From the NCBI RefSeq assembly GCF_963921235.1, contig NC_086097.1:79982001-80046000 (forward strand): a DNA stretch of 64,000 nt, written 5' to 3'. The position numbers were made by a program, and so were the translations under genes. The notes beneath the pieces are model-generated. The model saw only the letters and a program-made list of their open reading frames with translations, was not told where the DNA came from and did not search any database. Shown piece after piece: positions 3,488 through 54,086 of the stretch. Position 1 is the stretch's first letter, and each line of letters opens with the position of its first letter. This stretch comes from Mobula hypostoma (lineage: Eukaryota).

Positions 3488-5055
3488 CAGGTGTCCCCCG
3501 CTTTTCGAACATTCGCTTTACGAAACCTCACTGTTACGTAAGACCTACATTAGTTAACTGTTTTCGCTAACAGAAGGTGTTTTCACTGTTACAAAAAAAG
3601 GCAGCGCGCGAAAAAAGCAGCATGCGCCCCGAGAAGCCACTCTCCCCCAGATTCGGAACTGCATTCTTGCCGGCATTGCTTAAACATGTGCCTGTGAGCA
3701 GCTGTTTGCAAGATGAGTTCTAAGGTATTGGAAAAGCCTGAAAGAGCTCGTAAGGGTGTTACACTTAGCGTAAAACTAGACATAATTAAGCGTTTCGATC
3801 GTGGTGAACGAAGTAAGCACAAAGTGAGTTTGGCTTGTGGAAGTTGACAACGATGATGTTGAAGAGGTTTTGGCATCTCATGACCAAGAACTGATAGATA
3901 AAGAGCTGGTGAAATTGGAATAGGAAAGGATAACAATCAAAACCGAATGCAGTAGCGGACAGACCGAAAGTGAAGTCGTCCAGGAACTGAACGTGAAGTG
4001 ACTGTGTGAGATTTTCACTGCAATGATAAAGTACGACTTTAATTTTGAAAGAGTATGTCAGTTTAGGGGATATTTGCAGGATGGTTTAAGTGCTTACAAA
4101 GAACTGTACAATCTAAAAATGCGCGAGGCTAAGCAGTCAAGCAAGCCTTCCACATCAGCCAGAGCAGATGACGAACCTCGACCTTCGACATCGAAGCAGG
4201 CAGACATAGAAGAAGATGACCTGCCTGCCCTGATAGAAACAGGTGACAAGATGATACCCCAGTGTCCCACCACCCCAACCCACGGGCCACGGACAGATAC
4301 TGATCCCTGAAGAATGCGGCGGTAGCCGGGACGCGCCCAGCACATCTTTAAGAAAAAAGCCGAAATAAACAAGCTAATTAATTAGGTGCTACCCGGCACC
4401 TAATTAATTAGCTTGTTTGTTTCGTCTTTTTTCTTAAAGATGTGTTGGGTGCGTCCCGGCTACTGCTGTACCCCTGCATTCTCCGCGGATCGGTATCAGT
4501 TCGCTGCCCGGAGGGGGGGGGCCACTGCACCACCCCAACCTCCGACTACTCAGCCTAACACACCATCATCAGTGTGCTCGGCGCTGTCTTCCCGATTCTC
4601 GTAAGTGATGCTACACTGTACATACATTATTTCTACTTTATATTGGCTGTGTATTTTTATGTGTTATTTGGTATGATTTGGCAGCTTCATAGCTTAAAGG
4701 TTACTGGAGAGCGCTAGCGCCGTGTCTTTGCCAACGGCACTTGCGCCATGTTTCTGCTGATAGCGCTTGCGTGAGATTTTCGCTACGGAGGACAGTGCAG
4801 CAATGATTGTGGGAAAGTATTTCAACTTTATATAGGCTGTGTATTCATCATATCATTCCTGCTTTTACTATATGTTACTGTTATCTTAGGTTTTGTGTGT
4901 TATTTGGCATGATTTGGTAGGTTATTTTTGGGTCTGCGAACGCTCACAAATTTTTCCCATTTAAATGAATGGTAATTGCTTCTTCGCTTTACGACATTCT
5001 GGCTTACGAACCGTTTCATAGGAACGCTCTACCTTCCGATGGCGGGGGAAACCTG
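3488..5055 (+). mobile_element. Tigger/pogo-type DNA transposon, internally deleted
   Basis: TA flanks; imperfect TIR caggtgtcccccgc / gcgggggaaacctg; transposase N-terminal HTH remnant (RKGVTLSVKLDIIKRFDRGE, ~3750) joined to a C-terminal remnant (EEVLASHDQEL...YKELY). Confidence 0.85.
4260..4527. repeat. Long imperfect palindrome inside the Tigger element
   Basis: Arms 4260-4389 and 4396-4527 with a 6-nt loop tacccg; the inner ~70 bp are near-perfect. Confidence 0.9.
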
Positions 5056-5379
5056 TAATGTACAATAGAGGGTAAAAGTCTCTCTTGAAATAAATGGTCT
5101 CTTTGGGATATAAGTGTGGACAAAGCCCTGTTCCTCAAACAATTGATCTTTACAAAGATGCAGGAGGAGGTAACAAATTGAAGTAGGAATTGTGCACCAA
5201 TGTTGGATGACACAGTTCAACCTCAATGGAATTCTCCAGCAGTTTTGACTAGGGAATCTTTTCATTCATTTTAATTGAGGAGAATTGACTTAGGTAAATC
5301 AAATTTTAAAAAAATAAATAAGTTTCCTTGAGTACTCCTGAGTGTTTAAAAGTATTTTATATTTTATTTTAATTTTTAT

Positions 5380-5670
5380 CAATGGTTGGGTTGAGTTGTT
5401 TTCCAATCTTGGCAATCCATTTGCAAACATTTCGTCACACAGGAGAAGGCATCATCAGTACCTCATTATTTGTGCTAAGCCCTCCAAATGCTTGGCTTTT
5501 AGTTGATTGATCGTCTTTACGGGAACTCAAATGTGACGTAGAGAGGGAGTTCTATCGCTGACTGGATGCGTGGCAAAATCTGTGCGTTGTGTGAAATTTT
5601 TCCCGCATTAGATTATCTTCTTCTTCGGCTGTCCATTGATTTTTGATGTTGACTGACTGAGGCCTAGGAA
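5380..5670 (-). mobile_element. Penelope-like element terminal fragment (second family)
   Basis: Reverse complement of 5384-5462 is similar to 7024-7104 and contains ctgatga...cgaaa. Confidence 0.55.
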
Positions 5671-5674
5671 AGGT

Positions 5675-5903
5675 TGTATGGAAGACCGGCAGTTGCCCAT
5701 GCTGCAAGTCTCCCCTCTCCACGCCACCAATATTGTCCAAGGGAAGGGCACTAGGAGCCATACAGCTAGGCACCGGTGTCGTTGCAGAGCAATGTGTGGT
5801 TAAGTGCCTTGCTCAAGGACACAACACGCTGCCTCAGCTGAGGCTCGAACTAGCAACAATCAGATCACTAGACCAACACCTGAACCACTTGGCCACATGC
5901 CAC
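5675..5903 (-). mobile_element. tRNA-derived SINE
   Basis: Minus strand has A box tggccaagtgg and B box gttcgagcc. Confidence 0.7.
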
Positions 5904-5904
5904 A

Positions 5905-6690
5905 CCTTAAATACACCCAATGACTTGGCCTCCACAGTCGCTCATGGCAACAACCACAGATTTACCACCCTCTGACTAAAGTAATTTCTCTGCATCTCAG
6001 TTCTAAAAGGATGTCCTTCAATCCTGAGGTCGTGGTTTCTTCTCCTAAAATCCCCTATCATGGGAAAGAATTTTGCCATATCTAATCTGTTCAGGCCTTT
6101 TAACATTTGGAATGTTTCTATGAGATCCCCCCTCATTCTCCTGATCTCCAGGAAATACAGCCCAAGAGCTGCTAGATGTTCCTCATATGGTAACCCTTTC
6201 ATTCCTGAAATCATTCTCCTGAATTTTTTCTGAATCCTCTCCAATGTCAGTATATCCTTTCTAAAATAAGGAGCCCAAAAACTGCATACAATACTGCAAG
6301 TGTGGTCTTATGAGTGCCTTATCAAGCCTCAACATCACATCCCTGCTCTTATATTCTATACCTCTAGAAACAAATGCCAACATTGCATTCGCCTTCTTCA
6401 CAACCCACTGAACTTGGAGGTTAACCTTTAGGGTATCCTGCACAAGGACTCCCAAGTCCCTTTGCATCTCTGCATTTTGAATTCTCTCCCCTTCTAAATA
6501 ATAGTCTGCCAGTTTATTTCTTCCACCAAAGTGCATGACCATACACTTTCCAACGTTGTATTTCATTTGCCACTTCTTTGCCCATTCCTCTAAACTATCT
6601 AAGTCTCTCTGCAGGCTTTCTGTTTCCTCAACACTACCCACTCCTTCATCTATCTTTGTATTATCGGCAAACTTAGCCACAAATCGATTA
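5905..6690 (-). mobile_element. CR1 LINE fragment
   Basis: ORFs 6261-6680 (KFADNTK...RPHLQYC) and 5942-6244. Confidence 0.9.
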
Positions 6691-6694
6691 ATAT

Positions 6695-7135
6695 AAATGA
6701 GTTTCTACCCATGAAGATTGTGCGGGGCACAAATTCGATTGGACAATAGTGAATGTCATGGCGCAAGCAAACATGCGGCATGCAAGAGAATTCCTGGAAG
6801 TATGGTTACCTGCAAACAATTCTGTTTACATATTGACTTTGATCCCATTTATACGCCAATGCAGGCAAAATTCAAGACCACAACGCATAGAGTTCGCCAC
6901 GGAACGAATCAGTGGCGAGTCCTCCACTCTATGTCACAATTGAGTTTCCATAATGATAACCAATTAACTGACTGATAAGTATATAAAGGCCAAACACTCG
7001 AAGGACACACTGCAAGTGATCAGGTACTGATGATATCTCCTCGTATGGTGACAAAATGTTTGCAAATAGATTGGCAAGATTGTAGAACAACTCAGCCCAA
7101 CCATTAGCCACCCAAGCTACACAGTTTCCGAGTTA
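6695..7135 (+). mobile_element. Penelope-like element 3' end (GIY-YIG C-terminus and tail)
   Basis: HKFDW...AREFLEVW...HIDFDPIY motifs across frames; ctgatga motif at ~7027. Confidence 0.6.
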
Positions 7136-7444
7136 CTTCTAATTTTTATCAGTGCTTAAAATTCAATTTTCATCAACTCCACTAATTCTTGATTGTTACT
7201 GAATGTATGGAAGAAGTATGTTATGATACTTTAATGATGTCAGTAAATAAATTCCTTAATAAACTTGTTATGGAAGAAACAGAAGCCACAAATTTATTCC
7301 CTTTGAAGAACTCCGCTCAACAGTTCTGCACAGAAGATAATGGGGATGACTTCAAACAGTCTGCCCATCCTCCAGAACAGCTGCACCAACTAAGAAAATA
7401 TAATTAAAACATTACAACCCTCAAACAGCTAGTAAAACCTTGAC

Positions 7445-9252
7445 ATTAAAAAGAGGATGATTATGAAGAAAAAAAGGATGACAGGAGTGAAGGTAGGACC
7501 GATTAGAGATAAAGGTGGGAAGATGTGCCTGGAGGCTGTGGAAGTGAGCGAGGTCCTCAATGAATACTTCTCTTCGGTATTCACCAATGAGAGGGAACTT
7601 GATGATGGTGAGGACAATATGAGTGAGGTTGATGTTTTGGAGCATGTTGATATTAAGGGACAGGAGGTGTTGGAGTTGTTACAATACATTAAGACAGATA
7701 AGTCCCCGGGACCTGACGGAATATTTCCCAGGCTGCTCCACGAGGCAAGAGAAAAGATTGCTGAGCCTCTGGCTAGGATCTTTATGTCCTCGTTGTCCAC
7801 GGGAATGGTACCGGAGGATTGGAGGGAGGCGAATGTTGTCCGCTTGTTCAAAAAAGGTAGTAGGGATAGTCCGGGTAATTATAGACCAGTGCGCCTTACG
7901 TCTGTGGTGGGAAAGCTGTTGGAAAAGATTCTTAGAGATAGGATCTATAGCCATTTAGAGAATCATGGTCTGATCAGGGACAGTCAGCATGGATTTGTGA
8001 AGGGCAGATCGTGTCTAACAAGCCTGATAGAGTTCTTTGAGGAGGTGACCAGGCATATAGATGAGGGTAGTGCAGTGGATGTGATCTATATGGATTTTAG
8101 TAAGGCATTTGACAAGGTTCCACACAGTAGGCTTATTCAGAAAGTTAGAAGGCATGGGATCCAGGGAAGTTTGGCCAGGTGGATTCAGAATTGGCTTGCC
8201 TGTAGAAGGCAGAGGGTGGTGGTGGAGGGAGTACATTCAGATTGGAGGATTGTGACTAGTGGTGTCCCACAAGGATCTGTTCTGGGACCTCTACTTTTCG
8301 TGATTTTTATTAACGACCTGGATGTGGGGGTAGAAGGGTGGGTTGGCAAGTTTGCAGACGACACAAAGGTTGGTGGTATTGTAGATAGTGTAGAGGATTA
8401 TCAAAGATCGCAGAGAGACATCGATAGGATGCAGAAGTGGGCTGAGAAGTGGCAGATGGAGTTCAACCCGGAGAAGTGTGAGGTGGTACACTTTGGAAGG
8501 GCAAACTTCAAGGCAGAGTACAAAGTAAATGGCAGGATACTTGGTAGTGTGGAGGAGCAGAGGGATCTCGGGGTACATGTCCACAGATCCCTGAAAGTTG
8601 CCTCACAGGTGGATAGGGTAGTTAACAAAGCTTATGGGGTGTTAGCTTTCATAAGTCGAGGGATAGAGTTTAAAGGTCGCGATGTAATGATGCAGTTCTA
8701 TAAAACTCTGGTTAGGCCACACTTGGAGTACTGTGTCCAGTTCTGGTCACCTCACTATAGGAAGGATGTGGAAGCATTGGAAAGGGTACAGAGGAGATTT
8801 ACCAGGATGCTGCCTGGTTTAGAAAGTATGCATTATGATCAGAGATTAAGGGAGCTAGGGCCTTACTCTTTGGAGAGAAGGAGGATGAGAGGAGACATGA
8901 TAGAGGTGTACAAGATAATAAGAGGAATAGATAGAGTGGATAGCCAGTGCCTCTTCCCCAGGGCACCGTTGCTCAATACGAGAGGACATGGCTTTAAGGT
9001 AAGGGGTGGGAAGTTCAGGGGGGGATCTTAGAGGAAGGTTTTTTACTCAGAGAGTGGTTGGTGCGTGGAATGCACTGCCTGAGTCAATGGTGGAGGCAGA
9101 TACACTAGAGAAGTTTAAGAGACTACTAGATAGGTATATGGAGGAATTTAAGGATTTAAGGTGGGGGCTTATATGGGAGGCAGGGTTTGAGGGTCGGCAC
9201 AACTTTGTGGGCTGAAGGGCCTGTACTGTGCTGTACTATTCTATGTTCTATG
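7445..9252 (+). mobile_element. CR1 LINE, 5'-truncated, with open RT domain (ORF 7457-9031, 524 aa)
   Basis: KSPGPDG, NYRPV, QHGF, DFSKAFD, GVPQGSVLGP and FADD motifs; (ttctatg)n tail. Confidence 0.95.
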
Positions 9253-21760: not shown

Positions 21761-22034
21761 GTGGTGTTGGTATTTAATTTCTCTCCTGCATTTTTTTTTG
21801 AGTTTTAATGGAGGCGGGGGAAGAGGGGTTCATTTCTACCACACAAACAAATGAAAAATAACTGTTTAACTCTCCTGCCATTCCTCCAGAATTATTTCCA
21901 TAGTCTTAAATAAGTAATTCATTTTTAATGTCTTTGTAAAACCCAGGTACAGCTTTGTAGCATGAGTTCATTACTTTCAATTTCAGGTTGCATATTGAAT
22001 ATGGAATATAAAATAAACAGAAATCATATTAAAC

Positions 22035-22998
22035 GCAAACAACAGGAATTCTGCAGATGCTGGAAATTCAAGCAACACACATCAAAGTTGCTGGTGAACG
22101 CAGCAGGCCAGGCAGCATCTGTAGGAAGAGGTGCAGTCGACGTTTCAGGCCGAGACCCTTTGTCAGGACTAACTGAAGGAAGAGTGAGTAAGGGATTTGA
22201 AAGTTGGAGGGGGAGGGGGAGATCCAAAATGATAGGAGAAGACAGGAGGGGGAGGGATAGAGCCAAGAGCTGGACAGGCATCGGGAGCACTGGACGCAGT
22301 ATATCACCCCAGTCGACTCACAGGTGAAGTCGACTGGGGTGATATACTGCGTCCGGTGCTCCCGATGTGGCCTTTTATATATTGGCGAGACCTGACGCAG
22401 ACTGGGAGACCGCTTTGCTGAACATCTACGCTCTGTCCGCCAGAGAAAGCAGGATCTCCCAGTGGCCACACATTTTAATTCCACATCCCATTCCCATTCT
22501 GACATGTCTATCCACGGCCTCCTCTACTGTAAAGATGAAGCCACACTCAGGTTGGAGGAACAACACCTTATATTCCGTCTGGGTAGCCTCCAACCTGATG
22601 GCATGAACATTGACTTCTCTAACTTCCGCTAAGGCCCCACCTCCCCCTCGTACCCCATCTGTTACTTATTTTTATGCTCACATTCTTTCTCTCACTCTCC
22701 TTTTTCTCCCTCTGTCCCTCTGAATATACCTCTTGCCCATCCTCTGGGTCCTCCCCCCTTGTCTTTCTTCCCAGACCTCCTGTCCCATGATCCTCTTGTA
22801 TCCCCTTTTGCCTATCACCCGTCCAGCTCTTGGCTCCATCGCTCCCCCTCCTGTCTTCTCCTATCATTTTGGATCTCCCCCTCCCCCTCCAACTTTCAAA
22901 TCCCTTACTCACTCTTCCTTCAGTTAGTCCTGATGAAGGGTCTCGGCCTGAGATGCTGCCTGGCCTGCTGCGTTCACCAGCAACTTTGATGTGTGTTG
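22035..22998 (+). mobile_element. Penelope-like element: inverted 5' pLTR, GIY-YIG endonuclease C-half and 3' pLTR
   Basis: GVIYCVRCSRCGLLYIGET...FAEH...VATHFN...QPDGMN (22335-22632); 22035-22278 is an inverted copy of the tail; 17-bp TSD cagaaatcatattaaac (22018-22034, 22999-23015). Confidence 0.9.
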
Positions 22999-23595
22999 CA
23001 GAAATCATATTAAACTTTGTTTTCTTCTGTGTACTATATAAACTACTGTATAATATAGGACTACTTTATATTGTACTAATACATCATATTGAGCATGCGC
23101 TATTAGACACGTATTGATCTGTATATATGTGTTCAGTTCGGGTTCCGTAAGTAAAAGCCCCTGTTAGCTTAGCTCCAGTCTCTAGCATTATTATTAATGA
23201 TATTGTTGTGTAAAAGGCCACATACACAACAAATTGGCAACGAGGTTAATGAACCTGCATCGTATTGGAGCACCATGTTTTAATTGAGAACGGCACTCAG
23301 AAGAGGCAGAGGGAGGCCGCGAGTCTAAAAAGAAGCGGGAGTTCAGCTGGAGTCGAGAACGTCGGGAGACCGAAAGACAGTCGGAGCCGTGGCGCATCCA
23401 GGCGAGACCACAGCCAGCGCTGAACCCCAGGGCTGAGGGTCTGCCTGCCTCAGAAGGGAGAGGAAAAAAAGAGCAACACAGGCATGTAACCAGAGTACGC
23501 TCGCAACGCTAGCAAAAAACAAGTCACATGAGTCAAAAAGAAAACAAGGGACCGAGGCTAAATTCACATAACAAGGATAAATTAACATAACAAGG

Positions 23596-24770
23596 ATAGC
23601 GTTAATTGTAACCATTACAGCATTTGATAGTGGCATTGAAGACTGGGCAACTTATATTGAAAGGATAGAGTTATATTGTAATGCTAACGATGTTAGTGAA
23701 GAAAAGAAAGCCAGTGTCTTACTTAGTGTAATGGGCGCGAAAACATACGGCCTGCTATGGAGTTTGTTAGCCCCTGAAAAGCCAGCTGACAGACATTCAA
23801 GCAAATAGTAGACACTATCAGCATTTAAACCCCAAACCATTGATCATTGCTGAAAGATTTAAATTTTACAATTGGAATCAGAGCAAAAATGAAAGCATTT
23901 CTGAATATTGTGTTGAATTGCACAAACGATCAGAATATTGTCAATTTGGAGCTGGTCTATCAGATGCATGAGGGGCAGGTTAGTGTGTGGCATGCACTGT
24001 GAAACCACACAGAAGAAGCTCCTGTGTGAAAAAGACCTTACATTCGAGAAAGCGCTAAACATCTCAATATTATTAGAAACAGCCGCACCAGGTGCTTCAG
24101 AGATACAACAAAAATCTCTGGAACATGCTACAAATAAAATGTCACTGAGCAGAAATTAAGGAAAGAAATGTTACCGTTGTGGGAACATGCTGAACAGAAA
24201 TGAAGGAAAGAAATATTACTGTTGTGAGAACAAGTCACATGATCCTGATGTTTGTTGGTTTAAAGACAAAGAATGCCGAAACTGTGGCAAACAGGGTCAC
24301 ACTGGCAGAGTATGCAAAACTAGTAAACAACAGAAAAAGAGCAAAATACAGAGAAACAAGAAACTCCAAAAGTAAAGTACAAGGTAGACAAAATGAAAGA
24401 AAGCAGTTCTGATGAAAATGACTCCGACGAAAGTGAATTGTCTTGTCTGCAACTTCACTGCGTGAAAGAGACATGATCGAAGAGTAATATGGATCACTCT
24501 ACAAGTGGCAGGCGTGAGACTGAAAATGGAGTTGGATACAGGCTCAGCTTTAACAGTGACCTCTGTACACGACTACAAACGACTGTTTTCTGACAGAAAG
24601 CACATCCCAAAGGTAAAATTAAAGTGACACTGACCTACGGAGACAAAACCCAGCAGCTGTACCTCTATGTACTGAAAAATGGAGGGCCACCGTTGCTGGG
24701 ACGTGAATGACTCGGGAAAATTCAGTTGGATTGGCACACCATCAAGGCACTAGATGTGTCAACAAAGGAG
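23596..24770 (+). pseudogene. Gypsy gag and protease remnant
   Basis: FDSGIEDWATYIERIELYCNAN...LLSVMGAKTYGLL; CRNCGKQGHTGRVC knuckle; LKMELDTGSA protease active site; LLGRE*L...LDW. Confidence 0.9.
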
Positions 24771-24779
24771 GGCAGCTCG

Positions 24780-25062
24780 GCGGACTCGGATGAACATACA
24801 GAGGATGCAAGGGAGACAGTTATTGCCAATAAGCAGGAGGATGATGACTACCTGGAAATAAAAGAGAAGATGTACCAGGAGAAATTGACATCTCCCAAAA
24901 GACAGCTATAGCAGTTACAGGAAGGCACTTTGCAGGAGTATCAGAAAAGGATGAAGAAACTAGATCAACAATACAAGGAAGGAATATGAAATGCAGAGCT
25001 TTTTCTGCAACTGGAGACAGAAAAAGTGAAAAGGAATTATATTAGAGAGAAGAAAGAAGCAG
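24780..25062 (+). pseudogene. SUDS3: Captured intronless SUDS3 fragment (N-terminal coiled coil)
   Basis: [12 protein letters not shown]...[71 protein letters not shown] matches vertebrate SUDS3 as recalled; stops at 24909 and 24987. Confidence 0.9.
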
Positions 25063-25129
25063 AGAGAGCGCAGGAGCCCCATCTCAGATCGGCCCGAGCC
25101 GCAACCACCTCACGCAGCCTGTCAACATC

Positions 25130-25780
25130 ATGAGCGAGGCCGAGACGGAGCAGCAATCCGAACAGCAACAGCCAGACAAACCCAAATTCCCCAGGGAGAA
25201 GAAAGTTATCGCAACAAAGGTTCTTGGAACAGTAAGGTGGTTCAACATACAAAATGGATATAGATTCATCAACAAGAATGATACAAAGGAAGATGTGTTT
25301 GTACATCAGATTGCTTTAAAAAATAACCAATGGAAATACCTCCGCAGTGTTGGATGGTGAAACTTGGAGTTCGACGTAGGGCAAGGCGAAAAGGGTGCAG
25401 AAGCAGCAAATATAACTGGTTCCGAAGGCATTCCAGTCCAAGGAAGCCAATATGCCACGGACAGAAATCGTTATCGTCGCTACAACCCTCGCCGTCGAGG
25501 TCCACCACGTAATTACCAACAGAACATTGAAAGTGGAGAGGAAGGAGATGGAGCAGAGACAACAACAGATGGAGAAAACCAAGATGATCAAAATCAGCAA
25601 CATCGCCGTCCTTACAGAAGACAGCATTACCCACCTTACTTTGTTCATCGTCGCTATGGTCGCTACCCACAATATAGCGACCAGCCTCAGGGAGAAATTG
25701 CTGAGGGTGGTAAAATAAATGAAAGCCAGGTTGCTGGGGGAGAAGGTAAACCTAACAGAGGACAAAATCAATTCCATTCA
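25130..25780 (+). pseudogene. YBX1: Captured intronless Y-box protein (YBX1-like) fragment with cold-shock domain
   Basis: MSEAET...[37 protein letters not shown]...YLRSVG...[18 protein letters not shown]...[12 protein letters not shown]...RRPYRR; GC-rich 5'UTR-like leader 25063-25129; stop at 25358. Confidence 0.92.
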
Positions 25781-28700
25781 AACAAGTTTATGGACAGACG
25801 TTACCCAGAGGGACAGAGAAGACCTCCTCCAGAGACTTGAGTTATAATTATTATAATAATTATTATTATGTTACCTTATTATAATTTGATATTATTAAGT
25901 TACTAAGTAAATAATTGGTAAGCGTTTGTATGTTAAGGGTACACGTATTTGTTTAGCCTAGTGCCCCAGAAAAAAAAGTTGATACACTATTAAAATAAAA
26001 GGGGAGGAGTGTACCACATAACCTACTGTGTAATATAGGATTGCTTAATGTTGTACTAATACATCGTATTGAGCATGCGCTATTAGGCGCATATTGATGT
26101 GTTCAGTTCGGGTTCTGTAAGTAAAAGCCCTTGTTAACTTAGCTCCAGTCTCTAGCGTTTTTATTAATGATATTGTTGTGTAAATGGCCACATACACAAC
26201 ATTCTGTATCTTAAGGCATTTAGGAACAATTGAACAATTGATGTTGATTTCGGATGCTGTCTGCAGAGTTTGCATGTTCCCCATGTGACCATGAGGAGTT
26301 TCTACTGGGTGCTTCTTTCCTCCTACATCACAAATAGGTACAGGTAAAGTAATTGGCTATCGTAAATTACTCCTTAGTATAGGTTAATGACAATTAAAAT
26401 CAAAGTGGATGTATGAGAGAATGGACTGCAGAAATACAAGGAAATAAGGAGAGGAACAAAAAAAAAACAAAGTGCTTTAGGAATTCAACAGTAGTGGATG
26501 CAGAGGGATGTTCAATATTTTGGATTGAGACAAGGTTAGTAGGAAGAGTCTCCTGGTACTAACATACAACTGATTGGCTGAATGATGTCCTTCAGCAGTG
26601 CATCAATAAGCCAACTCAATTCTAAATTCAGCTGTCTACCTGCAAAACTAGACTCATACTGGTCCAGAAACACTTTTGTTTTTAAGGCAAAAATCATCAT
26701 CCTCTTTCTTGTTCTGTATTATATCATAATCCACAGATTTCTTTATCCAGATGATTATTATCTGGCACTTCAAAGCGATGGAAAAATACTACTAATGCTA
26801 TCTCCACAAAATCCACCATATTCACTGGGAAGGCAACCAAACCGACAACAGTGTCCTCTAACAGATGAATATCCCCAGCCTTGAAGTTTCAAGGATATGC
26901 TCAAAGCCTCCATGAATATCCTCACTGACTTGTGGGAATTTCTGTCCCATCGAACATGCAGCATGTTCGACCCATGACATCTTGTGCTGACCATGATGGC
27001 ATAAACTAATCCCGTTGCCTATAGATGGATTATGTTCCTTCATCCTCTGCCAATTCATGTGCCCATTTAAATTGCCTCTTTAAATGTTACTATCTCATCT
27101 GCTTCCACCATTTCTCCTGGCACTCCAGGCACCTACCGCTTCTATGTAGAAAATTTGCCTTGTAAATCGCCTTTAAACAACCGTCCCACCCTTAATCTAT
27201 ACCCTCTTACACTGAACGTGTCTATCCTGGCTGAAAGAGTTACAGCTGAAGAGGGAGTATTTGGGATGTGACTGAGAACCCCAAGTTCATGCATCAGGAA
27301 CACACAGGCTCTCCACAACTGATACCCACCAGCAGCTCTATCAGCTATCACATCCTATGTATTATTCCCAGATTGACTTCACTATCCACTTCTGAACCCA
27401 CAAACTTGAAGTGAAAGGAATACCTAATTAGAAGAAATTCAGAACACCTAACTCAACTTGTCAATGATTCAACTGAATTATCTGTGACACAGATCTAGTT
27501 TAAAATGAAACATGAACTGATAACAGCAAACAAAAGGAGAAAAATATGAAAGTACAAACATTTGTAAAAGAACACAAAGTAATGTATAATCTAGCATGGC
27601 GTCTCTTGATGCTGTAAATAACAAAACACACTGAGCTATAAAAATACACATGCATAAGGATACCAAAATCAATATTTACTTTACATTTACATCAGAATAA
27701 AAGAGTAGTCAGCAGCAATATGAGCCTATTGTTAATAGTGATATGATAACTGAAAATAAGGAAGTGACAGCTATATTGAAGAATTTCTTATATCAGAGAG
27801 GAAAATGAGAGCATACTGAATATCTCATGAACACTGAATTTAATAGCAATTAGCAAAAGAACAGAAATTAAGATAGTAGCACTAATGATGACAAATCACT
27901 GCGACCAAAGCATTTCCATCCTTCATTTTGAAAAGAACTGCCCATGTCCAAATTACAATCATCCAATGTCTTTTTTAATCTGCAAGCCATTCACTTTTGT
28001 AGAAAAACTCTACATGTCAGTTCACTATTTCAGAATAATCAACGGGAAATTTGAAGTTATACTATATATCACTTAGCCTAAAATCTTTTGTCAAGGAATT
28101 TTTGGAGTAGTGTTTCTATATAAGAATATTGTGCCTGAATGTTAAATTTACTGAAGTTGACTGACCCAAGGAATTGTATTTTATTTGATTTTGGTCTTTA
28201 CATGAGCATTTGAACTTAGTCACAGGTTTGTCACTTTTTCATAGAATGGTGGAACAGGCACAAGAAATCTATTGGTCTAAACCAAATTTGGTCCTCTTTT
28301 GAAGAATCGCCCCACAGGAGCTCAATTAAATTTTAAAGTCTCATTTCCTATTCTGATAATGCTGTAAGTTTTGTAAACATGTTGAATATATTTCGAGGTT
28401 ATGTTAATGGGGTCACAAGAATGTTCAATCTAATTTCCTTTTCACCACATGCAGCATGATGAATATACGTAGAAGTATTTAAATTGCTTTTCTTACTTTG
28501 GGTGAATATTAGAAACAGGAATTACACAATATTAGTGTTAACAGACCTCATTTTCTGACATTACAAATTGGAATCATTCCAAGCTACCTGAAGCTTTGCA
28601 GCTTCTTTTGAATTTCAATTTAAAACACAATTTTAAGTGCAATATACAAGAGACTAACCCATGACAAGTTATCTGTTTTTATTAAAGCAAATTTAATTTT

Positions 28701-30024
28701 AACCTTGCTTATAGATTAATTTTGGTAACTTAGGATTGATGCCTTATTTCTATGAGGTGGCAAAAGCTGTGTCCCATTGCAGTCTTTTTGAAGATAATCT
28801 TACTGCTCCTATTCAAATGCCATGTCACTTTTTCCAGGGATAACCCCTCAACAAAGTATTGGACCTACTGGCAAACAATAGCCCCATAAGAGTCCAAAGC
28901 AGTTGATTGTCAAGTCACAGTCACATAGAGAGATTATTTCGGTGAAGACAATGTTTCATCCAACTCTCCACCAGAGCTGCACACCAAACAGCTTCTGGTA
29001 ACCAGGCAATTAGAACAGGCAAACAGCAAATGTGAGAGAAAAAAGGGGATTGAAGGCCAAAGAGATTGAAGGACACTTTGTTGGGGAAGGATTGTGTACT
29101 ATAGGATTAAGGGAGAATGAAAGGAGGGAGCTGCCAATGGGATGAAAGGAACAAGCAAAAACATGAAGAAATGAGTCAAGGAAAGAACAAGCAGTACAGA
29201 AAGGAATGAGCACCGGGAATAGTGAATGAACAAGGGGGAGACACATGAGGGAAGAGGGAACAGATGAGAAAAGCAAGGGGGGAGTAAGTGGGAGCATAAA
29301 AAACAGGGGAAAGAGAGTGACTGATGGTGAAAAAGCAAAGACGAAAGAAGATTTGGTAATGAGCAGAGAGTAGTGGAAGCTTGTGGAATCTAGCACACCA
29401 CTGATCCCACACTAGCAGATGAATGCACTTGACTGTATTTTGAAGGAAGAAAAGGATCAGACTTATGAGGCATATTCAGAACTTTGACAAAAATTTATAG
29501 AAACAATTCAACAAAAGTACAGTCACATGTATGAATATAAAACTTGCTGGTGCTGTATTAGTTTTTAAATTGTTCGATACTGCATGTCTAGACATAAGGG
29601 GTAAGTAGCTAGTATTAACTGCATGCACAGCACTTACATTTGCATCTATGAAATCAGTACAGAAGAGGATTTTTGGAGAAAAGGTCACTAAGTCAACAGT
29701 CAGAATTAGTTTCAGCCAGGAAACTGCATACTTCACTGAGCAGAAACAAGCAAATAGTAAGCGTAGGTCCCAGAAGGACCGGACAAGGGTACCATTATCT
29801 GGCACAAATCCAATAAACACGTACAGTAGGAGATTGAAATGTGCGGTATCTCAAAGTACTTATCACCGGGCAAGAAACTGTTGACACAGAACCAAACAAG
29901 TTAGGCTAACTGAAGAAAATAACAAATCTGAAGATGTAGAAGAGTGCCATATCACATTGTTTGTGAAGTAATCACTAATGCAGAGACTTCTGAGGCAGAG
30001 ATTTTGATGATCGAATCTCTAGGA

Positions 30025-31985
30025 CAGTGGTCCCCAACCACCGGGCCGCAAAGCATGTGCTACCAGGCTGCGAGGAAACGATATGAGTCAACTGCACCCT
30101 TCCTCATTCCCTGTCACGCACTGTTGAATTTGAACGCACGCGAGGTCATTACCCACGCGAGGACATCAGTCGGTCATTAACCTACAACTAATCGATGAGT
30201 AAAAAACAAATGTCGCTTGAGAGTTTCTTTGGAAGAGATGGTAGGGGACATAAAAGGCTGAACAATGATGATAACGCAGAGACAGCTGAGGCCGAGACTG
30301 CAAAAAAAAGAAAGCTCCCCTTCAACAGAAAATACGACAAGTCGTACATAAAATATGGCTTTATTGCGACTGGTGACTCGCATGCTCCAACTCTCCTGTA
30401 TGTGATATGTGGAGACAAGCTGTCTAATGAGGCAATGAAGCCCTCAAAACTGCTTCGGCACCTTGAGTCCAAGCGCCCTGCACTTAAAGACAAACCAGTT
30501 GAGTTTTTTGAGCGGAAAAAACGTGAGCAAGTGGGACAGAAGCAAGTGCTGACAGCCACCACCTCCACAACTGCTGCTGCTCTGAGAGCGGTGTACTTAG
30601 TGGCTAGCCATATTGCTAAGGCTAAGAAGCCTTTCACTGTTGATGAAGAACTGATTCTGCCTGCTGCCAAGGACATGTGCCGTGAACTGTTGGGAGAAGC
30701 TGCAGCTAACAAGATGGCACAGGTTTCTCTTTCAGCTACCACAGTTTCAAGGAAAATTGATGACATAGCGGGGGACATCGAAGCACAGCTGTTGGAATGG
30801 CTTAACGAGTCTGGTTTCACTACCCGAGTCAAAGAGGTTGCTCCTGAATGCCAGTCTACACACTGTGTCACACACTGGGAAATGCTGGCTAGCCGAAAAA
30901 TGTCACCTGATCTTAAGTATTGAGTGACATTATTGAAGTTATCAATCACATTAAAGCAAAAGCCCTTAACTCACATCTGTTTGAACAGCTTTGCGAGGAA
31001 ATGGATGCAGAGCACAAATGTCTTCTTTTACACACTGAAGTCAGGTGGCGATCAAGGGGGAGAGCCCTGGCCAAGGTTTTTGAGTTAAGAGAGAAGCTAC
31101 AGAGATTTCTTTCAGGAAAAAAGTCACCACTGGCAGCACACTTCAGTGATGAGGACTGCATAGCAAAACTCGCTTATCTGTGTGACATCTTCAACCTGCT
31201 CAATGAACTCAATTTGTCACTTCAAGGGAGAATGACTATCTGCCAACTTGAAGACAGTTAAGTGTCTGCTTTCACAGCCAAACTGGAACTGTGGGGATGG
31301 CGAGTGGACAGGGGCATAGTTGACATGTTCCCAACATTAGCTGCGAATTAGGGAGAGACTGAGGCTCACAGATGGTGCACGAACACCTATCTTCGCTGTC
31401 GACAGAATTCGAGCGTTACTTCACACCACATATGACCCAAGACGTGCAAAGGAATGGGTCCGTGACCAATTTGTGAATGTCCCCAGTGAATCATCCATGT
31501 CAGTGTGGGAAGAAGATCAACTCCTCGAGCTTGCAAATGACGGTGGGCTGAAAAGTATGTTTGACATAACATTTCTGCCGGCATTCAGGATCAAAGTCAA
31601 GGCTGAATATCCTGAGATAGCCACGAAATCACTGAAAACATTGCTTCCATTTCCAACATCATATCTCTGCAAAGCAGAGTTTTCTGCAATGAATGGAACG
31701 AAAACTAAATTACAGAATAGACTGGACATAAGGAACCCCCTTATGACTTATAATTGACTTATCACTATATTCACGCAAGGAAAATACGCGTTGTGTGTTT
31801 AATATTAAATTTGTTAGATAAACCCTTTTAGAAACAAAACTGAGTGTATTAGCAACTGATAAGTGACTTATAGTTGACTTATCACCTATATTCCAGTCGT
31901 GATTAACACCACCACCACCCCCCGCCCCCAAGAATATCATCAATATTAAACCGGTCCGCGGTGCAAAAAAGGTTGGGGACCCCTG
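30025..31985 (+). mobile_element. hAT-Charlie/Buster-type DNA transposon with disrupted transposase (30195-31757)
   Basis: TIR cagtggtccccaacc / ggttggggacccctg; 8-bp TSD ctctagga / ctctaaga; motifs MKPSKLLRHL, LLLHTEVRW, LLPFPTSYLC. Confidence 0.95.
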
Positions 31986-31998
31986 CTCTAAGATACAG

Positions 31999-32013
31999 TA
32001 TATATATATATAT

Positions 32014-32056
<43 letters not shown>
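31999..32056. repeat. (TA)n(CA)n microsatellite
   Basis: Directly visible. Confidence 0.95.
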
Positions 32057-32057
<1 letters not shown>

Positions 32058-34009
32058 TATGGAGAAAAATGGCTTGAAAGCTGTGTGAGTAAACTAAGCC
32101 AAAATGAAGTGCAGAAACTGGTGAACAGAGATACATATAAAGCATTCAAATTTGGAGATGGAAAGATTGTACATTCCACCAAGAGTGAAAATACCCAAAA
32201 ACATAGGGCAGACGAATTGTTACATTGAAACAGAGGTGGTACCAGTGAACTTTCCATTACTCTTGAGTAAATCTTCCCTAAAGAAAGAAGCAGTACTGGA
32301 TATGGAGAATGATCAACCCACAATATTTCAACAGCCACTGTCTCTTGAAATCACCAGCTCTGGACATCACAGTGCGAACGTTCCAGATGAAGGTATTACG
32401 GAGAACCAATGTGAGAATGAAGTACTAACTGTCACACAAAACACGACCAGAGATGAGAAATGCTAAGTGTTGTTCAAACTTTACAAGAAGTTTCAATTGA
32501 TAGACTTCAGAAACTGCTCAAGAGTTCAGGAAACAAAGATACAGATTACTTTTCAATTCTAAAATTGACAGCTGTGAGACATGCCAAAACCCAAACCCAA
32601 TCCTGCAGTTGGTCTGCCACCACATCTGAATACAAAAAACAGTAGCCATAGAGCTATATGAACTGCAGCAAGGAGTATGGTACCTCCACATCATTGATAG
32701 TTCACACCTTTCAGTGCTGGTAGCATTGTAAATACAAAGAGACCCTCAGAGATACGGCAGAGAACTTTAACACTGAAACAAAGACAACAGTGTCATATAG
32801 TACTTGGAGTAACTGACTTGTGGAGTGACATAATCAAACGCTTACAGAAACAATGCTGAAGGTAAAGAAAAGCAAGGGCTATGATTGGAATACAGCCCTG
32901 GACTGGGCCCTTATGGTGAAGAACACCTTGTACAATGTATATGGCTATAGAGCATATCGATTGGTGTTCGGTCAGAATCCAAACCTTCCCTCTATACTGG
33001 TTGACAGACCACCTGCTCTAGGTGGCCCTACAAGGAGTGAATGGGTTAGGAAACATATTTCAAAACTGCATGCATCAAGGAAAACTTTCACTGAAGCAGA
33101 GTGTTCAGAGAGAATTCAAAGAGCACTGAGGGCACAGGTCCGTCCTACAAATGACAAATATGACACAGGGGACAAAGTGTATTACAAAACAGCATACCGT
33201 ACAGAATGGAAAAGTCCAGGAGTTGTCATTGGTCGGGTTGAGTTGTGGAGAGTGCAGATGGGAACTTAACAGACTTGCCTGAACAGAAATTATCACAAGT
33301 GCGAAGACAACATGGAAGTTTCAGTCTTAAAACAGGACAAACTGTTAGATTTGTAGACCAAGACACTGGTATCTCATACAAAGCTGAAGTCTTGGGATGA
33401 GCAGGCAAAGCCACTGGGAGAAACAAAAGTTGGTAGAACTTGAATTCCCTAGAACCAGTCATGGTTACTGGCACTGCAGGGTCAGTCAACATGTCATGTG
33501 TTGACAGACTTCATATTGAATCAAGTATAGATCAGGCTGGACCATCCATAGAGGGAAGAAATATCAAGAAGATGTTCCAGTAACTAAAGAGGTGCATTTG
33601 AATTTGCAATACAGAATGAAATCAGAAGTTGGAGAAATAATGGAGTATTTGAGGAAGCTAGAGACATTGGCCAAAAGACAGTGTCTACAAGAAATCATGT
33701 GCCACACAATGGATGCACCCTTCAGTGAAGCTGAAGCTGAGCAACTTAGGTCAAAGATAGGTCAGATTCTATGGGTGGCAAGGCAGGGCAGACCTAACAT
33801 CATGTTTGATGCCACAGTACAAACGTCACATGAGGCAAACAAGATATTGTGCAGAATTCAATTCAAAAAAGCAGTCTTTAAGTTTCAACAGCTTGGAAAA
33901 GATAGCTCACTAAGACTCATTGTCTTCAGTGATGCCTCACTTTGAAAACTTTCTGATGGAAGTACTGAAGGGGGACATTTCATTGTACTGATGGGGGAAA
34001 TGGGAAGAC

Positions 34010-34630
34010 TTATCGGCGAGACTCGATGTAGATTGGGAGACCACTTCGCTGAGCACCTATGCTCCGTCCACTAGAAAAAACAGGATCTCCCAGTGACCGC
34101 CCATTTTAATTTCACAAACCATTCCCATTCCGACATCAGTCCATGGCTTCTTCTACTGTCGCAATGAGGCCACACAGGCTGGAGGAGCAACACCTTATAT
34201 TCCGTCTGGGTAGCCTCCAACCTGATGGGATGAACACCGATTTCTCAAACTTCAGGTAATACCCCCCACATCACCATCCCCTTCTCTCACCTTATCTCCT
34301 TACCTGACCATCACCTCCCTCTAGTTCTCCTCCTCCTTTTCTTCCTTCCATGGCATTCGGTCCTCTCCTATCAGCCTTGATATCCCCCCTTCTCCAACCT
34401 TGTATCTCTTTCACCAATCAATTTCCCAGCTCTTTACTTTACCCCTCCCCCACCCAATTTCACCTATCACCTTGTGTTTCTTCCTCCCCTTCCCCTACCT
34501 TCTTACTTTGACTCCTCATATTTTTTCTCCAGTCCAGATGAAGGATCTCAGCCCAAAATGTCATCTGCACTCTTTTCCATAGATGCTGTCAGGCCTGCTG
34601 AGTTCTTCCAGCATCTTGTGTATGTTGCTA
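34010..34630 (+). mobile_element. Penelope-like element 3' fragment nested in the Copia RNaseH
   Basis: IGETRCRLGDHFAEHL...RLGSLQPDGMN; homologous to 22380-22998. Confidence 0.85.
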
Positions 34631-35273
34631 AGATTTTCTCCTCTCTATTGGCAATCAAAAAGGATATGAAGAGTTTTATGGAGTACACTGGCAGGAGAAA
34701 CCCTTGCAATGTCTGAAGGTATGGACAATGTTGTTTTTCTGGCCACACTCTATTCTGAGGTTTACCACGGTGACCCAAAGAAGAACAGTCTACAAATAAC
34801 TTGTGTCACAGACAAGACTACTCTTTGGTTAATGCCATCAAATCCACCAAGTTAGTTATCAAGAAAAGGCTTCATCTAGAGATAAGCAGCATCAAAGAAC
34901 TTGTCTGAGCACTGAAAATTCATCATGTGCTATGGTCAATCACAAAGAAACAACTAGCTGACTGTCTCACAAAGAAGGGAGTTCCAGCTCTTGTGCTGTT
35001 AAAGGCACTTGGTACCTTAAGAATTGTATTAACATCAAGGGTTAGAACTAATTCTTATATCCTAATGGACATTTGAATTGTCTTTAAATTTTTTTCAAAT
35101 TTAATTTTAATATATACATAAAAATATGGGAAATTGTTGAGTTCTGTTTATTTGGACTATGTAAGTATTCGCACACACACTCTCCCTGGTATGCGCGTGC
35201 ACTAAAAAGAAGAGAGGGAAATTGTGGGATGTAAAGATGGCGGCCCTCAGGTATTGAATGGAAATGTTGAAAG

Positions 35274-35345
35274 TACAGTTGTTTAAACAAAAACCATTGA
35301 ATTTTTTCTATTTCTGCATAAATATGACCCAAAATGTGATCAGAT
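35274..35345. mobile_element. Tc1-like terminal fragment
   Basis: Shares ttttctatttctgcataaatatgacc...gtgatcagat with ~36790-36833. Confidence 0.45.
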
Positions 35346-36180
35346 GCAATTTAATGTGGATAAATGTGAGGTTATCCACTTTGGTGGCAAGAACAGGAAA
35401 ACAGATTATTATTGAATGGAGGCTGATTAGGAAAAGGGGAGGTGCAATGAGATCTGGGTGTCATTATACACCAGTCATTGAAAGTGGGCATGCAGGTACA
35501 GCAGGCGGTGAAAAAGGCAAATGGTATGCTAGCATTCATAGCAAGAGGATTCGAGTACAGGAGCAGGGAGGTACTACTGAAGTTATACAAGGCCTTGGTG
35601 AGACCACACCTGGAGTAGCGTGTGCAGTTTTGGTCCCCTAATCTGAGGAAAGACATTCTTGCCATAGAGGGAGGACAAAGAAGGTTCACCAGATTGATTC
35701 CTGGGATGGCAGGACTTTCATGTGATGAAAGACTGGATCAACTAGGCTTATACTCGTTGGAATTTAGAAGATTGAGGGGGGATCTTATTGAAACGTATAA
35801 AATTCTAAAGGGATTGGACAGGCTAGATGCAGGAAGATTGTTCCCGATGTTGGGGAAGTCCAGAACGAGGGGTCACAGTTTGAGGATAAAGGGGAAGCCT
35901 TTTAGGACCGAGATGAGGAAAAACTTCTTCACACAGAGAGTGGTGAATCTGTGGAATTCTCTGCCACAGGAAACAGTGAGGCCAGTTCATTGGCTATATT
36001 TAAGAGGGAATTAGATATGGCCCTTGTGGCTAAAGGGATCGGGGGTGGGGGGGTATGGAGAGAAGGCTGGTACAGGGTTCTGAGTTGGATGATCAGCCAT
36101 GATCATACTGAATGGCGGTGCAGGATCGAAGGGCCGAATAGCCTACTCCTGCACCTATTTTCTATGTTTCAATGTTTCTG
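35345..36180 (+). mobile_element. CR1 LINE 3' fragment, same young subfamily as 15362-16921
   Basis: Translations are nearly identical (LKGLDRLDAGRLFPMLGKSRTRGHSLRIKGKPF). Confidence 0.93.
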
Positions 36181-36755
36181 AAATGTGTCCTTATTGTTTG
36201 AGCATTAACAGTGTCTGATATAATGTATTCAGGGAACACCAACTAGAGAAGAAAATGCATATTACACAATATTGTGAAGGAAACATGAGATCTTTAGAGA
36301 ATTAACAAGCAAGAAAGTGTGAGTTGTGTCTCACAAACAGTTATATGTTCAGGTCTAAATTCCAATGTACTATCTAGACCAGTAATGTCAACCACCCATC
36401 TGCCACCACAGATACCTCTGGACGCACTAAGTTCCAGATTACAGCATTTACAGCCTCTTGCAAAAAATACTAATCAGGAAAACTGAATTATTATGTGCAG
36501 TGTTGATCACCAATGTAAGAAGGATGCAATAACATGACAGAGAGTTATTTATGTATTTTATTTATTTATTGACATCAGAATGTTTTCAGGACAGCAAAAA
36601 TCCTACCTATGAAGAATTAATAGTTTATATGGATTTTATTTCCTTTTGGAACAGAGTGAGTTGAGAGCAGAATTAATTGAAAAGTATTAAATTATACTGG
36701 TCAAGATACAGTAGATAATATGAATTATTATTCACACTGAGATAAATAGAATCTA

Positions 36756-52800: not shown

Positions 52801-54086
52801 AGCCCACCCTTCCATCCGGGCGACCATCCGGCTGATTGCAGACAGGTTTGTGCGGCACGGCCTACGCAAGCAGGTTGGGCACTGGGCCAGGACATGCACG
52901 CACTGTCAAACCTCCAAAGTCCAGAGGCACATGAGGGCCCCACTGCAACCCTTCCAGCCGACACATAGGAGGTTTGAACATGTCCACGTGGACATCATCG
53001 GCACACTGCCAGTTTCGAGAGGAGCGAGATACCTGTTCACCATGGTGGACAGGTTCACGAGGTGCCCAGAAGCTATCCCACTCGCTGACACAGCCACGGA
53101 GACATGCGCCAGAGCCCTGATTACCACCTGGGTGACACGGTTCGGACTCCCAGCCCATGTCACTTCAGACAGGGGTGTGCACTTCACATCGGCTTTGTGG
53201 TCTGCACTGGCACAACTCCTCGGAATCCAGCTCCACCGAACGACTGCTTACCACCCGCAGTCCAACGGCCTGGTGGAACGTTTCCATAAGCACTTGAAGT
53301 CAGCCCTGATGGCACGCCTCCGAGGGCCAGACTGAGTTGACAAACTCCCCTGGGTGCTGCTTGGCATCCGCACAGCACCCAAGGAGGACCTGGCCGCATC
53401 ATCGGCCGAACTTGTTTACGGTGAGTTTGTGCCAGCACCCCGTGGCTAGGAGGACACATCTACGGCGGTCCTAACTAAACTCTGGGAGTGGCTTGGAACA
53501 CTTGCCCCAGTCCCGACGTCCAATTATGGAACAACACCCTCTTTCGTTCCCAAGGACCTACAACAGAGCAAGTATGTTTTCGTTCGTCGAGGCGCGCACA
53601 GACCACCTCTGCAGCGACCATACAAAGGACCCTACAAGGTGGTGCGCCATAACGGGATGACTTGCGTTCTCAACATCAGTGGTCGTGAAGAGACTTTTAC
53701 CATTGACTGTCTGAAACCGGCGCATTTAGACCTTGAACGCCTGGTTGCGGTGCCACCCCCATGACGACGAGGCCGACCACCTAAAAGAACTGACAGTGTG
53801 CAGGCTGTGGACTCTGCACCTCCTAGCGCCGGTTCTAGGGGCTGGGGCAAGTGGAGGCTCGCCCATGTGGCAAGCAAACCGGCTCCAGCAGCCAGCGGCA
53901 ACCGAGAGGGTTCTGAGTGCGGGGCAGACCTCGGCCCAGAAGCTGACGTCACTTCAGCCCCACTAAAAGCAGGGGATGCTGGGAGCGGGCACTTAAGAGC
54001 GCACGGATTGAAATAGTAAACAGTTCAACCAGATCCTGCTCGACTCAGTGTGTTGCTTTCACTCGTTGCGTATCAGCGCAACCACA
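49801..54086 (+). mobile_element. Full-length decayed Gypsy LTR retrotransposon
   Basis: LTRs 49801-50054 and 53850-54086; PBS tggtgatcctgacg (tRNA-Trp-like); TSD gtgt/gcgt; gag (KLPTFW, CFYHQRWG), PR (FLVDTGAEIS), RT (YLDD), RNaseH (VDASD), integrase (HPSIR...CTHCQ, VTSDRG, HPQSNGLVERFH); multiple stops. Confidence 0.95.

What the first reader, a model, noticed from the sequence alone, without database searches (positions are those of the whole stretch)
25063..25840. YBX1 cargo keeps its own leader and ATG and ends in frame in a pol-like tail
Seen: a GC-rich leader, then ATG at 25130 in a different frame from SUDS3. ORFs 25130-25360 and 25364-25840 share one frame. Relative to canonical VGDGETVEF, two nearby deletions (2+1 nt) create the TGA but restore the frame. 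The ORF ends in [11 protein letters not shown], resembling the basic C-terminal tail of Gypsy pol. Inference: the element was effectively bicistronic, and a cold-shock domain plus Arg-rich protein could aid RNA packaging or annealing.
Basis: partly seen in the sequence, partly recalled or inferred. Interest (0 to 1): 0.7.

Follow-up and report, generated by a model that had tools for sequence, protein, structure and literature searches.

The report
Retrotransposon-borne YBX1 fragment in rays

Summary
The sequence features are real; the interpretation mostly is not. Window 23030-26201 is a decayed non-autonomous Gypsy element (LTRs 9% diverged, 5-bp TSD). Its RT-RNaseH-integrase region is replaced by a SUDS3 fragment and a spliced, 3'-truncated YBX1 mRNA (25046-25769). 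The stop at 25361, the 2+1 deletions and the pol origin of [11 protein letters not shown] are confirmed.

'Bicistronic' is not supported. In host ray YBX1 and in 4 of 11 annotated ray copies the leader is open in frame with YBX1, and those copies read from SUDS3 straight into it. The frame offset here traces to a 1-nt loss near 25076. The YBX1 ATG is lost in 4 of 8 copies covering it. The in-frame pol tail occurs in only 1 of 11 other copies. This copy shows no purifying selection (7 of 34 changes synonymous, about 11 expected if neutral).

Best reading: serial template-switch capture, passive amplification, then decay. The likely founding frame was a single Gag-PR-SUDS3-YBX1 ORF; a selected role for it remains possible but unsupported. 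The scan found this family before elsewhere in this genome (e1-7807655).

The parts
23025..23029 (.). 5-bp target-site duplication TTCTG, left copy (right copy 26202-26206)
23030..23231 (+). 5' LTR (TG...CA)
   Evidence: 18 mismatches in 192 aligned columns plus one 10-nt gap against the 3' LTR
23235..23245 (+). primer-binding-site-like TGG motif just inside the LTR; a tRNA-Ser match is recalled, not tested
   Evidence: sequence
23596..24366 (+). decayed gag with CCHC knuckle, broken by several frame shifts and stops
   Evidence: tblastn to Gypsy polyprotein P0242, 67% identity in three pieces, E 5e-54; zf-CCHC E 0.007, below cutoff
24466..24764 (+). decayed aspartic protease (LDTGS); its end is in frame with the SUDS3 fragment
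   Evidence: P0242 residues 241-329 match the protease profiles weakly
24783..25062 (+). SUDS3 mRNA fragment (host residues 34-126), two stops; first 33 residues absent in this copy
   Evidence: 84% identity to P0123, E 1e-43; Pfam Sds3 E 3.8e-5, just below cutoff; P0012 keeps the SUDS3 start
25046..25062 (+). overlap on which both SUDS3 and YBX1 contigs lie; both parents read E-K-K here in the same frame; inferred template-switch point
   Evidence: run X1 records 2 and 3 and loose ends; P0123, P0244
25046..25129 (+). YBX1 5' leader, open in frame with the ATG in host models; 1-nt loss near 25076 in this copy
25130..25769 (+). spliced, 3'-truncated YBX1 coding sequence; cold-shock domain broken by a stop at 25358-25360
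   Evidence: Pfam CSD E 4.8e-15 with X at the stop; PDB YBX1 E 1e-23
25770..25784 (+). 15-nt remnant of an element segment that also follows SUDS3 'KRPAS' in SUDS3-only model P0257; origin not tested here
   Evidence: motif shared by P0013, P0257 and the window's other frame
25785..25843 (+). last about 20 codons of Gypsy pol, joined to the cargo by a secondary deletion; frame shift near 25828; 5' boundary approximate
   Evidence: P0242 ends RRYPERCRKPPQRFDL and P0404 ends similarly; depth step up at about 25790 in three other runs, 1-nt difference at 25828
25992..26009 (+). polypurine tract
26010..26201 (+). 3' LTR

Best explanation
This is a decayed, 3'-truncated YBX1 retrocopy inside a non-autonomous Gypsy LTR element, likely made when reverse transcriptase working on an already SUDS3-carrying element switched onto a co-packaged host YBX1 mRNA and back, then likely spread as a passenger by enzymes of an autonomous relative. 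Shown: the element anatomy, both breakpoints, the existence of SUDS3-only relatives, a shared 3' breakpoint in copies from four ray species, and the lesions of this copy. Inferred steps: (1) SUDS3 cDNA replaced RT-RH-IN just behind the protease; (2) a switch at the purine-rich overlap 25046-25062, where both parents read E-K-K in one frame, brought in YBX1 in frame behind SUDS3; (3) a second switch after 25769 returned to the element; (4) the subfamily multiplied in trans; (5) this lineage later lost the stretch between cargo and pol tail, and this copy took the frame shift near 25076 and the stop in the cold-shock domain. The separate leader, ATG and pol-like end are therefore capture leftovers plus decay, not a second cistron.
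For: LTRs, TSD, PPT, gag, PR, no RT/IN. Host mRNA contigs lie colinear over 25046-25769 and leave there. 8 of 11 annotated ray copies show the same 3' junction (7 in this frame, P0013 in another) and none continues into the host C-terminus. Six SUDS3-like Mobula loci share an 8-residue deletion absent from host SUDS3, and other contigs continue into SUDS3 behind 25062. Summed DNA depth over SUDS3 is roughly 10-40 times that over YBX1 (not a copy number). SUDS3 runs in frame into YBX1 in P0004, P0007, P0011, P0013; PR runs in frame into SUDS3 in P0012 and the window. 7 of 34 listed coding differences from host are synonymous, 10.8 expected under a neutral shuffle. The cold-shock region has 0 changes in 77 residues in 6 of 6 other elasmobranch and chimaera hosts but 3-17 changes in each of 12 copies. 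Half the LTR divergence (4.7%) nearly equals the cargo-to-host divergence (5-6%), so most change postdates insertion. The mechanism, multi-gene chimeras and further amplification are described in PMC5131818 (passages).
Against: Pooled over 11 copies the cold-shock region changes less than the rest (11.9% vs 16.4%; 10.3% vs 13.7% without Arg sites, p 0.03, copies not independent). Two in-frame junctions are a 1-in-9 coincidence if random. The closest copy P0002 is modelled as an open 239-residue ORF including the tail. Two exact-match contigs of this locus occur in a probable RNA run (depth 4.3 and 11.4). The extra letter at 25076 is listed for only 25-42% of DNA depth, so some copies may share the window's frame offset. 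Other copies were seen only as gene models and short contigs, not as whole loci.
Confidence: 0.8

Rival explanations
1. Selected polyprotein cargo: the founding subfamily translated one Gag-PR-SUDS3(N)-YBX1 ORF, and the element's protease would release a SUDS3-YBX1 chimera whose cold-shock domain stabilised or helped package element RNA, favouring spread.
For: In-frame PR-SUDS3 (P0012, window) and SUDS3-YBX1 (4 of 11 models) junctions; gag and pol form one ORF in the relative P0242; frame changes in this copy's gag/PR coincide with length differences against other copies; milder decay of the cold-shock region; shared cold-shock changes K39R and R52K are conservative while shared Y123C and Y158D outside it are not; host YB-1 supports HIV RNA levels and particle production, and MLV/MMTV production (PMC6040738, passages).
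Against: The YBX1 subfamily is far less abundant than the SUDS3-only parent, so no advantage is visible. The window lineage has no synonymous excess. The cold-shock bias can come from picking only annotated, searchable models. Host YBX1 is abundant anyway (contig depth about 7,000 in X1). The in-frame junction can follow from the E-K-K overlap alone.
Confidence: 0.12
2. One reading: YBX1 was translated from its own leader and ATG as a second cistron ending in the pol tail.
For: Leader and ATG are present here and in P0002, P0004, P0008, P0011; P0002 is modelled from that ATG to the pol-like tail.
Against: Leader is in frame with SUDS3 in 4 of 11 models; ATG replaced in 4 of 8; tail fused in 1 of 11 other copies; 39 ATG triplets lie between the 5' LTR and this ATG; no splice joint into the leader among the joints listed (only part of the joints were shown).
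Confidence: 0.04
3. This one locus was domesticated in Mobula as a truncated YBX1 gene (open in M. birostris as P0002) and is only recently, or only in this assembly, broken.
For: Window and P0002 form a 100/100 pair on a long shared branch, as orthologues would; P0002 is modelled intact; exact-match contigs in a probable RNA run; 2+1 deletions 12 nt apart could be a recent event or an assembly slip.
Against: The shared branch carries the RNP1 Gly-to-Arg change and a one-residue loss in the cold-shock domain; P0002 differs from host at 14 of 76 cold-shock positions; no synonymous excess; contig depth about 1/1,600 of host YBX1. Among many copies a few open frames are expected by chance.
Confidence: 0.04

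Closest known systems
LTR-mediated retrocopies of animals (Tan et al. 2016, PMC5131818; passages read)
   Same: Partial spliced mRNA replacing internal ORFs between two LTRs, microsimilarity at the junction, several parent genes in one locus, further retroposition as a non-autonomous element.
   Different: Here the cargo subfamily is shared by four ray species in two families, was built on an already amplified SUDS3-carrying family, and was likely captured in frame with gag-PR; no cartilaginous fish is named in the passages read.
Maize Bs1 (as cited in PMC5131818)
   Same: LTR element carrying pieces of three cellular genes.
   Different: A plant element; no evidence here for a retained chimeric gene under selection.
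Avian E26 Gag-Myb-Ets fusion (PMC4276956, passages read)
   Same: Gag fused in frame to two truncated host genes in series.
   Different: E26 is an infectious, selected oncogenic retrovirus; this is an env-less retrotransposon derivative with no shown product or selection.
Gypsy gag-pol polyprotein P0242 of Triplophysa rosa (Mag-like; clade name recalled)
   Same: 67% identity in gag, same protease region, same C-terminal RRYPxxxRxPP tail.
   Different: P0242 has RT, RNase H and integrase; the window element has none.
Host Y-box-binding protein 1 of myliobatiform rays (P0243, P0244)
   Same: Leader and residues up to NRGQN, 80% identity.
   Different: Upstream annotated start not captured, last 88 residues lost, stop and RNP1 change in the cold-shock domain.

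Membership tests
LTR-mediated retrocopy | Cargo flanked by both LTRs of one element with TSD | tested here: met
LTR-mediated retrocopy | Cargo replaces part of the internal ORFs rather than interrupting an intact element | tested here: met
   PR end at 24764, pol tail from about 25785, no RT/RH/IN hit between
LTR-mediated retrocopy | Cargo colinear with spliced mRNA, often partial, no poly(A) or own TSD | tested here: met
   host contigs of a probable RNA run colinear over 25046-25769, largest gap 9 nt; host intron positions themselves not fetched
LTR-mediated retrocopy | Microsimilarity at switch points | tested here: inconclusive
   5' side: both parents lie over 25046-25062. 3' side: parent DNA not held, so not measured; no chance control run
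LTR-mediated retrocopy | Further retroposition of the chimera (shared breakpoints and derived changes) | tested here: met
   same 3' junction in 8 of 11 models; Y158D in 9 of 12 copies; position 25612 differs from host in 95-98% of depth in three runs
Ty3/Gypsy LTR retrotransposon, autonomous | Intact gag-pol with RT, RNase H, integrase | tested here: not met
Gypsy Mag clade | RT phylogeny | not testable with these tools
   no RT in the element; two CCHC-like motifs and single-ORF relative P0242 fit recalled Mag traits only
Functional YBX1 retrogene | Open cold-shock domain with intact RNP1/RNP2 | tested here: not met
   stop at 25358-25360, RNP1 Gly replaced
Functional YBX1 retrogene | Purifying selection | tested here: not met
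   7 of 34 synonymous vs 10.8 expected; family-level test inconclusive
Bicistronic element | Second ORF with conserved own start, out of frame with the first across copies | tested here: not met
   in frame in 4 of 11 models; ATG kept in 4 of 8
Transducing retrovirus-type Gag fusion (E26-like) | Translated Gag-cargo fusion protein that is selected | not testable with these tools
   in-frame junctions seen; no translation data

The most novel reading that the evidence does not exclude
A ray retrotransposon subfamily encoded a single Gag-protease-SUDS3-YBX1 polyprotein, an E26-like double host-gene fusion in an env-less element, and used the captured cold-shock domain as an RNA chaperone in its particles while it was replicating.
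Probability: 0.12. Interest if true: 0.75.

Novelty: new member of a known kind. Interest (0 to 1): 0.35.

Why it matters
It explains the many 'YBX1-like' and 'SDS3-like' gene models in stingray and devil-ray genomes as cargo of one retrotransposon family, not independent retrocopies. A 2026 preprint lists SUDS3 among the top retrocopy parents of cartilaginous fishes and reads such lists through germline expression and selective filtering, with non-LTR elements as the driver (10.64898/2026.06.26.734816, passages; its supplements were closed, so whether YBX1 or LTR flanks are treated there is unknown). The family gives a multi-species set in which selection on captured cargo during replication can be measured. 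If the polyprotein reading were true, it would show a vertebrate retrotransposon recruiting a host RNA chaperone by capture.

Tried and rejected
No whole genome is held, so copies could not be counted or compared as loci. Run search: no RNA holder listed; X1 is only guessed to be RNA and no silent control stretch was laid. Tail from YBX1's own Arg-rich repeats: rejected, since host contigs leave at 25769 and the tail sits at the stop-codon end of Gypsy polyproteins; the direct tblastn tail hit alone is weak (E 0.2, 8 of 11 identical). YBX2/YBX3 parent: rejected on leader match and 80% identity to YBX1; ray YBX2/3 were not fetched. The two other Gypsy elements in the window are not the helper: 27-33% identity to P0242 and different tails. 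A ray autonomous partner was sought: one search gave 1 hit among 14 candidates (a loach polyprotein); one search gave mostly gag-sized relatives. The contig before 24967 that carries element-leader sequence was considered as a splice and read as a deletion derivative, as there is no AG at the joint. Literature: no paper on this family (open-access library only); one search found no paper on an upstream YBX1 start; one search gave no YB-1 annealing paper. Scan look-ups by sequence and near place were empty. ARAGORN found no tRNA. In one search, differences outside the coding part and the one at 25355 were dropped, and about 4-6 differences were not listed by the tool. No structure or complex prediction was run.

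Full report
Observation. The leader 25063-25129 is 64% GC, the ATG is at 25130, and 25130-25360 and 25364-25840 share a frame with a TGA between them; the ORF ends [18 protein letters not shown]. The first 76 residues match YBX1 cold-shock structures at E 1e-23. With X at the stop the whole domain matches Pfam CSD at E 4.8e-15 and the protein is 80% identical to Mobula YBX1 P0244 up to NRGQN. Deep contigs of run X1 (depth 3,297-6,962, taken to be host mRNA; the run's RNA status is a guess) lie colinear over 25046-25769. They show length differences at 25076 (1 nt), 25162 (9), 25317 (3), 25352 (2) and 25364 (1). So the 2+1 reading is right, the capture starts about 17 nt earlier than stated, and the last 88 host residues are missing.

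Setting. The cargo lies in an element at 23030-26201 with TG...CA LTRs (18 mismatches in 192 columns), TTCTG duplicated on both sides, a PBS-like motif and a polypurine tract. Inside are a broken gag and protease related to the Gypsy polyprotein P0242 (67% in gag), then SUDS3 residues 34-126 (84%), then YBX1. No RT, RNase H or integrase remains. The nearest relatives are from myliobatiform rays; the host is inferred to be close to Mobula.

The tail. P0242 ends RRYPERCRKPPQRFDL and a second Gypsy model, P0404, ends with a similar motif. Host YBX1 contigs leave at 25769, and summed depth in three other runs steps up at about 25790. The tail is thus pol-derived, although the pairwise hit alone is weak (E 0.2). 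In this copy pol's last codons QRLEL-stop lie in another frame, and 42-55% of the depth in those runs differs by one nucleotide at 25828. Among the best 120 of 1,710 hits are 11 'YBX1-like' models from Mobula birostris, M. hypostoma, Hemitrygon akajei and Hypanus sabinus. Eight show the same 3' junction (seven in this frame, one shifted) and none continues into the host C-terminus. Only P0002 runs into the pol tail. Five continue into a different short stretch, and four of those stop 12 residues after the junction. The in-frame tail is therefore a later deletion in one lineage, not a family trait.

The leader and frame. Host models P0243 and P0244 begin 36 residues upstream of MSEAE and read [29 protein letters not shown] in frame; whether that extension is translated was not established (one search found no paper). 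SUDS3 reads IKEKKAAV at the matching point. Contigs of both parents lie over 25046-25062, so the switch fell where both encode E-K-K in one frame. P0004, P0007, P0011 and P0013 read from SUDS3 through the leader into YBX1 without a break, and P0006 has the leader in frame; the other six models do not cover the junction. In the window a 1-nt loss near 25076 splits this frame, and tblastn of P0244 hits the leader in two frames. Against over-reading: gene models are biased to open frames, and the extra letter is listed for 25-42% of depth in three runs, with further contigs ending loose at 25080. The YBX1 ATG is kept in 4 and replaced in 4 of the 8 models that cover it, and 39 ATG triplets precede it in the element. 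The protease end is in frame with SUDS3 in the window and in P0012. The likely founding arrangement is one Gag-PR-SUDS3-YBX1 frame, not two cistrons.

Order of events (inferred). Six SUDS3-like Mobula loci share an 8-residue deletion absent from host SUDS3, several being full length; that they sit in this element is inferred, as their DNA was not held. Other contigs continue into SUDS3 behind 25062. Summed DNA depth over SUDS3 is 3,700-4,800, 29,600-36,700 and 4,800-8,300 in three runs, against 140-240, 870-1,280 and 220-420 over YBX1 (the tool warns this is no copy number). SUDS3 capture therefore came first and YBX1 defines a smaller subfamily. The 15 nt after the YBX1 break translate to a motif that also follows SUDS3 'KRPAS' in P0257, which suggests the polymerase returned to the element further down the SUDS3 region. 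An earlier scan note names antisense RNF213 as another cargo; I did not test that.

Selection. Of 34 listed coding differences between window and host contigs, 7 are synonymous against 10.8 expected when the same change types are placed at random (P of so many or more 0.96; a rough test, about 4-6 differences unlisted). The 77-residue cold-shock region is identical to P0244 in 6 of 6 other hosts, including chimaera, but has 3-17 changes in each of 12 copies. Window and P0002 share an RNP1 Gly-to-Arg change and form the only long, fully supported pair in an otherwise star-like tree. Half the LTR divergence (4.7%) is close to the cargo-host divergence (5-6%), so most change followed insertion. 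In the other direction, the cold-shock region decays less than the rest when copies are pooled (11.9% vs 16.4%; 10.3% vs 13.7% without Arg; 0.85 vs 0.99 distinct changes per site), and two shared changes in it are conservative. Ascertainment of annotated models and non-independence can give this, so it is a hint only.

Expression. Run X1 holds two exact-match contigs of this locus, 23223-23461 (depth 11.4) and 25502-25905 (depth 4.3), against about 7,000 for host YBX1. This may be faint transcription or DNA carry-over.

Mechanism and rivals. Best: template-switch capture in the particle, passive amplification in trans, neutral decay (0.8). This matches LTR-mediated retroposition as described in PMC5131818 (passages), including multi-gene chimeras and further cycles. 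Rival: a translated, selected polyprotein (0.12), analogous to E26 Gag-Myb-Ets (PMC4276956, passages), made plausible by YB-1's support of retroviral RNA levels (PMC6040738, passages) but undercut by the subfamily's lower abundance. The bicistronic model and single-locus domestication get 0.04 each.

Novelty. The kind is known. I found no paper on this family (open-access library only). The preprint 10.64898/2026.06.26.734816 (passages) names SUDS3 as a top retrocopy parent in cartilaginous fishes, has no mention of YBX1 in its main text, and its supplements were closed. The scan had already noted SUDS3-only and SUDS3+YBX1 copies elsewhere in this genome. What this report adds is the frame analysis: in-frame capture, decaying ATG, secondary tail fusion and neutral decay. 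Verdict: real, explained, new member of a known kind; interest 0.35.

Noticed in passing
window 49890-54086: A second Gypsy element with RT, RNase H and integrase pieces and 165-nt direct repeats 90% alike; distant from this family (27% to P0242).
   Followed up: partly
window 55569-58765: A third, 3.2-kb Gypsy element with LTRs and a 500-codon RT-RH-IN stretch; internally shortened, not the helper.
   Followed up: partly
window 30188-30970: Open frames of 243 and 260 codons on opposite strands without a Pfam hit; the + frame looks like the start of a hAT/Buster-type transposase (recalled resemblance, untested).
   Followed up: partly
window 22031-22999: Inverted 145-nt arms 539 nt apart around a stretch repeated at 34011-34265; looks like a Penelope-type repeat remnant by recall; extremely deep in all runs.
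   Followed up: no
proteins P0243, P0244, P0003, P0005, P0248: Shark and ray YBX1 models share an upstream in-frame start (MFFQ...) 36-52 residues before MSEAE; a conserved N-terminal extension may be real.
   Followed up: partly
window 24967 (run X1 loose end): A contig joins element leader sequence like 23509-23538 directly to the SUDS3 part: a gag-less deletion derivative of the family.
   Followed up: partly
window 25847-25861: An AT-rich simple repeat stands where other copies have a different 3' untranslated stretch.
   Followed up: no
proteins P0125, P0128-P0130, P0132, P0230, P0257: Several element-type SUDS3 models are full length with open frames; they may be better candidates for selected cargo than YBX1.
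   Followed up: partly
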